From the human T2T-CHM13v2.0 reference genome, Homo sapiens, in assembly GCA_009914755.4 (NCBI GenBank), contig CP068257.2:33312001-33376000 (forward strand): 64,000 nt of DNA. Direction: 5' to 3'. The notes under the pieces were generated by a model. That model saw nothing but the letters and a program-made list of their open reading frames with translations, ran no database searches and had not been told where the DNA came from. How positions within the stretch are numbered: the first letter of the stretch is position 1; each line of letters starts with the position of its first letter. The position numbers and the translations under genes are program-made. Positions 45,745-45,960 of the stretch are shown in pieces.

Positions 45745-45960
45745 TTTTATAGATGTGGAAACTAGGCTCAGAGTGATTGGATAAATTGCCCATATGCTAA
45801 AAGAGAAGGCAAGCAAGTGTAATACTAGGCAGAGCCAGCTAGATGTGGAAACTAGGCTCAGAGTGATTGGATAAATTGCCCATATGCTAAAAGAGAAGGC
45901 AAGCAAGTGTAATACTAGGCAGAGCCAGCTAGTAAGTGGTGGAGGAAAAGACTTCCCCCT
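45745..45960 (-). mobile_element. MIR SINE carrying an internal perfect 2 x 90-bp tandem duplication
   Basis: The MIR core is tttatagatgtggaaactaggctcagagtgattggataaattgccca...agccagctagtaagtggtggagg. The 90-mer at 45751-45840 is repeated exactly at 45841-45930. Confidence 0.7.
45751..45930. repeat. Perfect tandem duplication, 2 x 90 bp at 100% identity
   Basis: agatgtggaaactaggctcagagtgattggataaattgcccatatgctaaaagagaaggcaagcaagtgtaatactaggcagagccagct occurs twice, head to tail. Confidence 0.97.

What the first reader, a model, noticed from the sequence alone, without database searches (positions are those of the whole stretch)
45751..45930. Perfect 90-bp tandem duplication embedded in a MIR element, a candidate recent event or polymorphic indel
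Two head-to-tail copies of a 90-mer are 100% identical, inside an ancient MIR whose own sequence is heavily diverged from consensus. Zero divergence between the copies implies the duplication is evolutionarily very recent, far younger than the host MIR. It may be a polymorphic 90-bp indel/VNTR in the population, or an assembly or replication-slippage artifact. It also creates the internally repeated spurious ORF at 45721-45906.
Basis: seen in the sequence. Interest (0 to 1): 0.5.

Follow-up and report, generated by a model that had tools for sequence, protein, structure and literature searches.

The report
Ordinary 90-bp tandem duplication in MIR
A 90-base stretch inside an ancient, decayed MIR repeat in primate non-coding DNA has been copied once, head to tail and without error; this is the commonest kind of short insertion in such genomes, nothing suggests a function, and its age is only bounded to under roughly 15-30 million years.

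Summary
Bases 45750-45839 and 45840-45929 are identical 90-mers, and the period-90 identity runs 45750-45932 because a 3-bp TAG is shared at the junctions. The host is primate non-coding DNA. The host element is a diverged MIR on the minus strand, about 78% identical to consensus with many indels. Both outer edges of the repeat continue the MIR consensus; only the inner junction breaks it. So two copies is the derived state.

Zero differences in 90 CpG-free sites only bounds copy-to-copy divergence below about 3.3% (95%). P(0 differences) is 0.34 at human-chimp-level divergence, 0.06 at orangutan level and 0.003 at macaque level. The duplication is far younger than the MIR but need not be polymorphic; a simple neutral estimate gives about 10%.

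The ORF at 45721-45906 (-) is spurious. A ZNF768 site, unusual DNA structure and breakpoint homology were each tested and none was found.

Copy number in other assemblies could not be checked, because no searchable collection holds this locus and the window has no gene to anchor orthologues.

Verdict: a routine small tandem duplication, most likely from break repair or template switching. Low interest.

The parts
45750..45839 (.). Copy 1 of the 90-bp unit (TAGATGTGGAAACTAGG...GGCAGAGCCAGC); 43% GC, no CpG
45840..45929 (.). Copy 2 of the 90-bp unit, 100% identical to copy 1
45930..45932 (.). TAG: 3-bp junction microhomology, the same as the first 3 bases of the unit. It makes the breakpoint position ambiguous by 3 bp.
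   Evidence: identity runs to 45932; microhomology of 3 bp or more is expected at 6.5% of random sites
45836..45845 (.). The novel head-to-tail junction (..CCAGC|TAGATG..), the only point where colinearity with the MIR consensus is broken
   Evidence: (alignment to the MIR consensus)
45645..45965 (-). Host MIR (CORE-SINE) copy in minus orientation, 5'-truncated or decayed. The core (TTTTAtAGATGtGGAAACT-AGGCtCAGAG on the + strand) lies at the start of the unit. The limits are approximate.
   Evidence: E 2e-6; 77.6% identity, consensus rc 28-198; right flank CAGCTAGTAAGTGG 14/14 at 45925-45938, 0 of 2000 shuffles reach it; co-alignment with 5 other MIR copies in the window
45721..45906 (-). Spurious 61-aa ORF (TTG start) whose internal repeat comes from the in-frame duplication (90 = 30 codons)
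   Evidence: no homologue in 5.8 billion clusters; not on record as a called gene

Best explanation
This is a real, selectively neutral, derived 90-bp tandem duplication of part of an old MIR element in primate non-coding DNA. Shown: two identical head-to-tail copies, outer edges continuous with the ancestral MIR sequence, one novel inner junction, and a 3-bp TAG shared at the breakpoints. Inferred: one mutational event copied the segment next to itself. The likeliest route is repair of a double-strand break with staggered or resected ends that were filled in and rejoined, by NHEJ or by polymerase-theta end joining using the TAG microhomology. Alternatively, a replication template switch occurred between the two TAGs 90 bp apart. 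The event happened long after the MIR inserted. The copy-to-copy divergence is below about 3.3% (95% bound), so the event is younger than roughly the orangutan or Old World monkey splits. The most probable age is of the order of the human-chimpanzee split or less. It has no detectable function.
For: The repeat is perfect. Derived state: the left edge TTTTATAGATGTGGAAACT and the right edge CAGCTAGTAAGTGG (14/14) each continue the MIR consensus, while the inner junction joins consensus position about 182 back to about 128. The host MIR is 77.6% identical to consensus with 40 gap columns, against 0% divergence between the copies; MIRs stopped amplifying about 130 Myr ago (PMC5381342). Age bound. 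There is no coding or RNA signal: no Rfam hit in the window, the ORF has no homologues, and there is no exon evidence. The unit has lost the MIR-core ZNF768 motif (motif from PMC6344866). The class is common: small tandem duplications are the most frequent short (<100 bp) insertions in the human genome and arise at double-strand breaks (PMC8355091, citing Messer & Arndt 2007). Human and chimpanzee chromosome 22 differ by 6,279 indels of at least 10 bp in 33 Mb, and 12% of the 1,429 outside repeats have an exact local copy (PMC2654908).
Against: No second assembly, outgroup or read data could be examined, so neither the ancestral one-copy allele nor the reality of the two-copy allele in an individual was observed directly. 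The 3-bp microhomology is not significant on its own (P about 0.065) and cannot separate the candidate mechanisms. The MIR consensus used was recalled from memory. It is only partly validated, by the published ZNF768 motif it contains and by the other MIR copies in the window.
Confidence: 0.85

Rival explanations
1. It is a copy-number-polymorphic indel or nascent minisatellite: the duplication is so recent that one-copy and two-copy alleles (possibly three-copy) still segregate in the species.
For: Zero differences between copies is the most likely outcome for a very young event (P(0) = 0.91 at within-human diversity). Perfect tandem copies are substrates for slippage or unequal exchange (general knowledge).
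Against: Zero differences is also quite likely for much older events (P = 0.34 at human-chimp level). Under a constant rate of neutral duplications, the posterior probability that the age falls within typical human coalescence (about 0.1% divergence) is 1-exp(-0.09), about 9% (derived). No population data could be reached.
Confidence: 0.12
2. It is an assembly, cloning or consensus artefact: the real genome has one copy.
For: Nothing specific; perfect identity is also what an artefact would produce.
Against: A 183-bp feature lies well inside a single Sanger, HiFi or nanopore read, so it is not a typical mis-assembly. Short-read assemblers tend to collapse such repeats rather than create them (general knowledge). 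The junction has clean 3-bp microhomology with no vector or chimeric sequence, and the window has no N gaps.
Confidence: 0.03
3. It is an older duplication kept identical by gene conversion or purifying selection because the doubled MIR core is functional, for example as an enhancer module or a splice element.
For: MIR cores are enriched in enhancers and bind ZNF768 (PMC4090950 title and abstract, PMC6344866). The minus strand of the unit carries an acceptor-like tract, and a donor-like site lies just outside it.
Against: The ZNF768 motif is lost at this locus. The host MIR is heavily decayed, at 77.6% identity with many indels, which argues against constraint. A 90-bp tract is shorter than the roughly 200 bp generally needed for efficient mammalian homologous conversion (general knowledge). 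No gene or exon was detected in the 64 kb.
Confidence: 0.03

Closest known systems
Small tandem duplications, the main class of recent short (<100 bp) insertions in the human genome (Messer & Arndt 2007, as cited in PMC8355091 and PMC2654908)
   Same: The inserted segment is an exact head-to-tail copy of the adjacent sequence. It is 90 bp long, has short junction microhomology, and lies in non-coding DNA.
   Different: Nothing material. At 90 bp it sits near the upper end of the size range those studies emphasise.
Minisatellite / VNTR locus
   Same: The unit length falls in the 10-100 bp range and the array is detected by TRF.
   Different: There are only 2.0 copies, no copy-number variation has been shown, the unit is 43% GC, and no array of diverged units exists. 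At most it is a proto-minisatellite.
MIR (CORE-SINE) element, including MIR-derived enhancers and ZNF768-bound MIRs
   Same: The host sequence is a MIR copy and the duplicated part includes the conserved core.
   Different: This copy is decayed, has lost the ZNF768 motif, and shows no evidence of exaptation.

Membership tests
Simple tandem duplication (short-insertion class) | Two adjacent head-to-tail copies with no spacer | tested here: met
   start-to-start spacing 90 equals the unit length, 100% identity
Simple tandem duplication (short-insertion class) | Outer flanks continuous with the ancestral sequence; only the inner junction is novel | tested here: met
   both outer edges are colinear with the MIR consensus and the inner junction is not
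Simple tandem duplication (short-insertion class) | A one-copy state in an outgroup or alternative allele | not testable with these tools
   No primate assemblies are searchable. Two anchors gave 0 hits in viral, metagenome and prokaryote collections, and there is no gene to anchor orthologues.
MIR / CORE-SINE | Significant similarity to the MIR consensus, including the roughly 70-bp core | tested here: met
   E 2e-6, 80% over the core; 77.6% over consensus rc 28-198; co-aligns with 5 other MIR copies. The consensus was recalled from memory; its core matches the published ZNF768 motif.
MIR / CORE-SINE | tRNA-derived 5' head | tested here: not met
   The alignment stops at about consensus position 64 (rc 198). 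No convincing match to the head was found downstream of 45965. The copy is truncated or decayed, as is common for MIR copies.
ZNF768-bound MIR | GCTGTGTG-N20-CCTCTCTG with at most 3 anchor mismatches (PMC6344866) | tested here: not met
   matches at 23672, 30112, 35817 and 62420 only, none at 45640-46010. By eye there are about 7 anchor mismatches and a 6-bp longer linker.
Minisatellite / VNTR | Array of several tandem units that varies in copy number between individuals | not testable with these tools
   Only 2.0 copies are seen here, and no population data are available.
Protein-coding gene (ORF 45721-45906) | Homologues or a recorded gene call | tested here: not met
   and 29/30 (the ORF's sequence was part of those queries)

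The most novel reading that the evidence does not exclude
The second copy is lineage-specific or still polymorphic and has a small cis effect. On the minus strand each unit carries an acceptor-like tract (CTTGCCTTCTCTTTTAG|, putative exon starts at 45796 and 45886), and a donor-like ACG|GTGAGA lies at 45741/45740. The duplication therefore adds a second, 90-nt-longer, frame-preserving cryptic MIR exon, or doubles a MIR-core enhancer fragment, if the locus lies in a minus-strand transcript or an active regulatory region.
Probability: 0.03. Interest if true: 0.3.

Novelty: already known. Interest (0 to 1): 0.08.

Why it matters
It matters very little. Short perfect tandem duplications are the routine way primate genomes gain small insertions, and this one sits in decayed repeat DNA with no gene, RNA or motif evidence. 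The useful points are methodological. Zero differences over 90 bp is weak dating evidence. It excludes an age beyond about the orangutan or macaque split but does not indicate a polymorphism. Using the consensus of the host repeat as a stand-in for an outgroup can show which state is derived even when no second genome is available. If the locus did prove polymorphic, it would be a convenient PCR-sized neutral marker and nothing more.

Tried and rejected
(1) Finding the locus in other assemblies. Exact-match scans used a unit-internal 31-mer and a right-flank 30-mer in viral, metagenome and prokaryote-genome collections, hoping for primate contamination; all six scans returned 0 hits.

(2) Retrieving contigs through called ORFs. 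The 61-aa ORF is not on record, and seven concatenated flanking ORFs (598 aa) have no homologue.

(3) Finding a real gene or exon to anchor primate orthologues. There is no CpG island or convincing long ORF. A crude splice-site PWM, recalled from memory, gave 33 candidates that look like noise, with no PDB or Pfam match. I printed a 25-kaa pseudo-protein but did not submit it, and I did not spend the two remaining large protein searches. I judged the chance of success at about 5% or less, and any host gene would probably exceed the 100-kb retrieval limit.

(4) Mechanistic clues. Breakpoint homology is no better than at random sites (72.9% of random sites score as high). Single-strand DNA folding of the unit and the junctions is unremarkable (z from -0.16 to +0.57). 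These findings reject hairpin-driven or homology-driven models.

(5) Regulatory doubling through ZNF768. The motif is absent.

(6) Literature. No paper in the library mentions a '90-bp tandem duplication'.

(7) Rfam. Nothing in the window reaches gathering score.

Full report
**Observation**

The window reads ...CACCGTATTTTA | TAGATGTGGAAACTAGGCTCAGAGTGATTGGATAAATTGCCCATATGCTAAAAGAGAAGGCAAGCAAGTGTAATACTAGGCAGAGCCAGC | (same 90 bases) | TAGTAAGTGGTGGAGG....
- TRF reports 45750-45932, period 90, 2.0 copies, 100% matches, no indels, score 366.
- The repeat finder reports 45750-45839 and 45840-45929 at 100%.
- A direct comparison confirms identity. The period-90 match runs for 183 bp because the three bases after copy 2 (TAG) equal the first three of the unit.
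- A 35-mer from the unit occurs exactly twice in the window and never in 100 shuffles.
- This is the only long-period perfect tandem repeat in the 64 kb.

**Context**

The window is primate nuclear DNA.
- CpG observed/expected is 0.21 against GpC 0.99.
- There are about twelve full-length dimeric Alu copies and several L1 ORF2 fragments.
- Nothing in the window reaches an Rfam gathering score.
- There is no CpG island and no convincing ORF.
- A crude splice-site scan produced only noise-like candidates, with no PDB or Pfam match.

The locus therefore lies in intronic or intergenic DNA.

**Host element**

- A MIR consensus that I recalled from memory hits 45744-45792 on the minus strand (80% identity, E 2e-6).
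- With the duplication collapsed, the locus aligns to positions 28-198 of the reverse-complemented consensus, with 125 matches, 36 mismatches and 40 gap columns (77.6% identity).
- The recalled consensus contains the published MIR-core motif GCTGTGTG-N20-CCTCTCTG (PMC6344866).
- Five other MIR copies in the same window co-align with this locus on the core.

So the MIR assignment does not rest on memory alone. The copy is old and decayed; MIRs stopped amplifying about 130 Myr ago (PMC5381342).

**Which state is derived**

- The left outer edge (TTTTA|TAGATGTGGAAACT) continues the MIR core (consensus TTTTACAGATGAGGAAACT).
- The right outer edge (CCAGC|TAGTAAGTGG) contains a perfect 14/14 match to consensus CAGCTAGTAAGTGG at 45925-45938, which none of 2000 shuffles reached.
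- Only the inner junction (CCAGC|TAGATG, 45839|45840) joins a later consensus position back to an earlier one.

The MIR consensus thus serves as a surrogate outgroup. It shows that one copy was ancestral and that the second arose by duplication in place.

**Age**

The unit has no CpG and is 43% GC. With 90 compared sites, P(0 differences) = exp(-90d). The species divergence values are from general knowledge.

| Divergence level | P(0 differences) |
|---|---|
| Within-human diversity | 0.91 |
| Human-chimpanzee (1.2%) | 0.34 |
| Gorilla | 0.24 |
| Orangutan | 0.06 |
| Macaque | 0.003 |

- The 95% bound is d < 3.3% and the median is 0.77%.
- In time, that is younger than roughly 15-30 Myr, depending on the rate used.
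- Under a flat prior on age, about 66% of the posterior is younger than human-chimp-level divergence, and only about 9% falls within typical human coalescence.
'Very recent' or 'polymorphic' does not follow from it.
- A two-copy state shared with chimpanzee or gorilla would need no special conservation.
- Homogenisation by gene conversion is unlikely for a 90-bp tract (general knowledge; not tested).

**Mechanism**

- The only junction feature is the 3-bp TAG microhomology. Microhomology of 3 bp or more occurs at 6.5% of random 90-bp-spaced sites in this window, so it is suggestive at best.
- Extended similarity between the two breakpoints is no better than random; 73% of random sites score as high.
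- Single-strand DNA folding of the unit and junctions is average (z from -0.16 to +0.57).
- Homology-driven unequal exchange and hairpin-promoted slippage are therefore not supported.
- The anatomy fits the standard picture for small tandem duplications. These are the commonest short (<100 bp) insertions in the human genome and arise at double-strand breaks through fill-in plus NHEJ. Polymerase-theta end joining gives larger duplications with microhomology at the junction (PMC8355091).
- A replication template switch between the two TAGs remains possible, and the sequence cannot distinguish the two routes.
- For scale, human and chimpanzee chromosome 22 differ by 6,279 indels of at least 10 bp in about 33 Mb. 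Of the 1,429 outside repeats, 12% have an exact local copy (PMC2654908).

**Function**

No function is indicated.
- The 61-aa minus-strand ORF (TTG start) is internally repeated only because 90 is a multiple of three. It has no homologue and no recorded gene call.
- The ZNF768 site of the MIR core is lost here. Matches with at most 3 mismatches occur at 23672, 30112, 35817 and 62420 but not at this locus.

**What could not be done**

The decisive comparison, copy number in other haplotypes and in ape orthologues, was not possible.
- Two different anchors gave no exact match in the viral, metagenome or prokaryote-genome collections.
- No called ORF or annotated gene was available to pull orthologous contigs.

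Polymorphism and assembly artefact therefore remain untested. The artefact reading is unlikely a priori, because a 183-bp feature lies within a single read of any long-read or Sanger technology.

**Verdict**

This is a real but ordinary small tandem duplication inside a decayed MIR, derived, neutral as far as can be seen, and only loosely dated. Interest is low.

Noticed in passing
window 45732-45902, minus strand: Read in MIR-sense orientation, each unit carries a strong acceptor-like tract (CTTGCTTGCCTTCTCTTTTAG|CATATGG; putative exon starts at 45796 and 45886). A donor-like ACG|GTGAGA lies once, just outside the unit (last exon base 45741). The duplication therefore creates two nested cryptic 'exons' of 56 and 146 nt. 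The scoring used a crude PWM recalled from memory, and it is not known whether any transcript runs on this strand.
   Followed up: partly
window 45795-45950: There may be an older, decayed short duplication inside the same MIR. GGCAGAGCC (consensus rc 190-198) lies before AGCTAGTAAGTGG (consensus rc 178-191), the reverse of the consensus order. About 38 extra bases sit between TTGCCCATATGC and CAGCTAGTAAGTGG. A direct alignment of the two putative copies was not significant (36% of shuffles score as high).
   Followed up: partly
window 45202-45230 and 45243-45271: An imperfect 29-bp direct repeat (72% identity, spacing 41) lies about 500 bp upstream of the duplication. It is probably chance or an old small duplication.
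   Followed up: no
window 23672-23707 (-), 30112-30147 (+), 62420-62455 (-): Three sites retain the ZNF768 bipartite motif of the MIR core within 3 mismatches. The sites at 30112 and 62420 coincide with MIR copies found. A fourth hit at 35817 lies in a CA/TG-rich low-complexity stretch and is probably spurious.
   Followed up: no
window 30480-31229 (-): The longest ORF in the window (249 aa, ATG start) lies in a stretch of about 47% GC. It has no Pfam match and a low-complexity, non-protein-like composition, so it is probably chance.
   Followed up: partly
window 35600-36200: A degenerate CA/TG-rich region (period-18 TRF hit at 35860-35902) yields long His/Thr-rich pseudo-ORFs on the plus strand. 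It looks like a decayed microsatellite.
   Followed up: no
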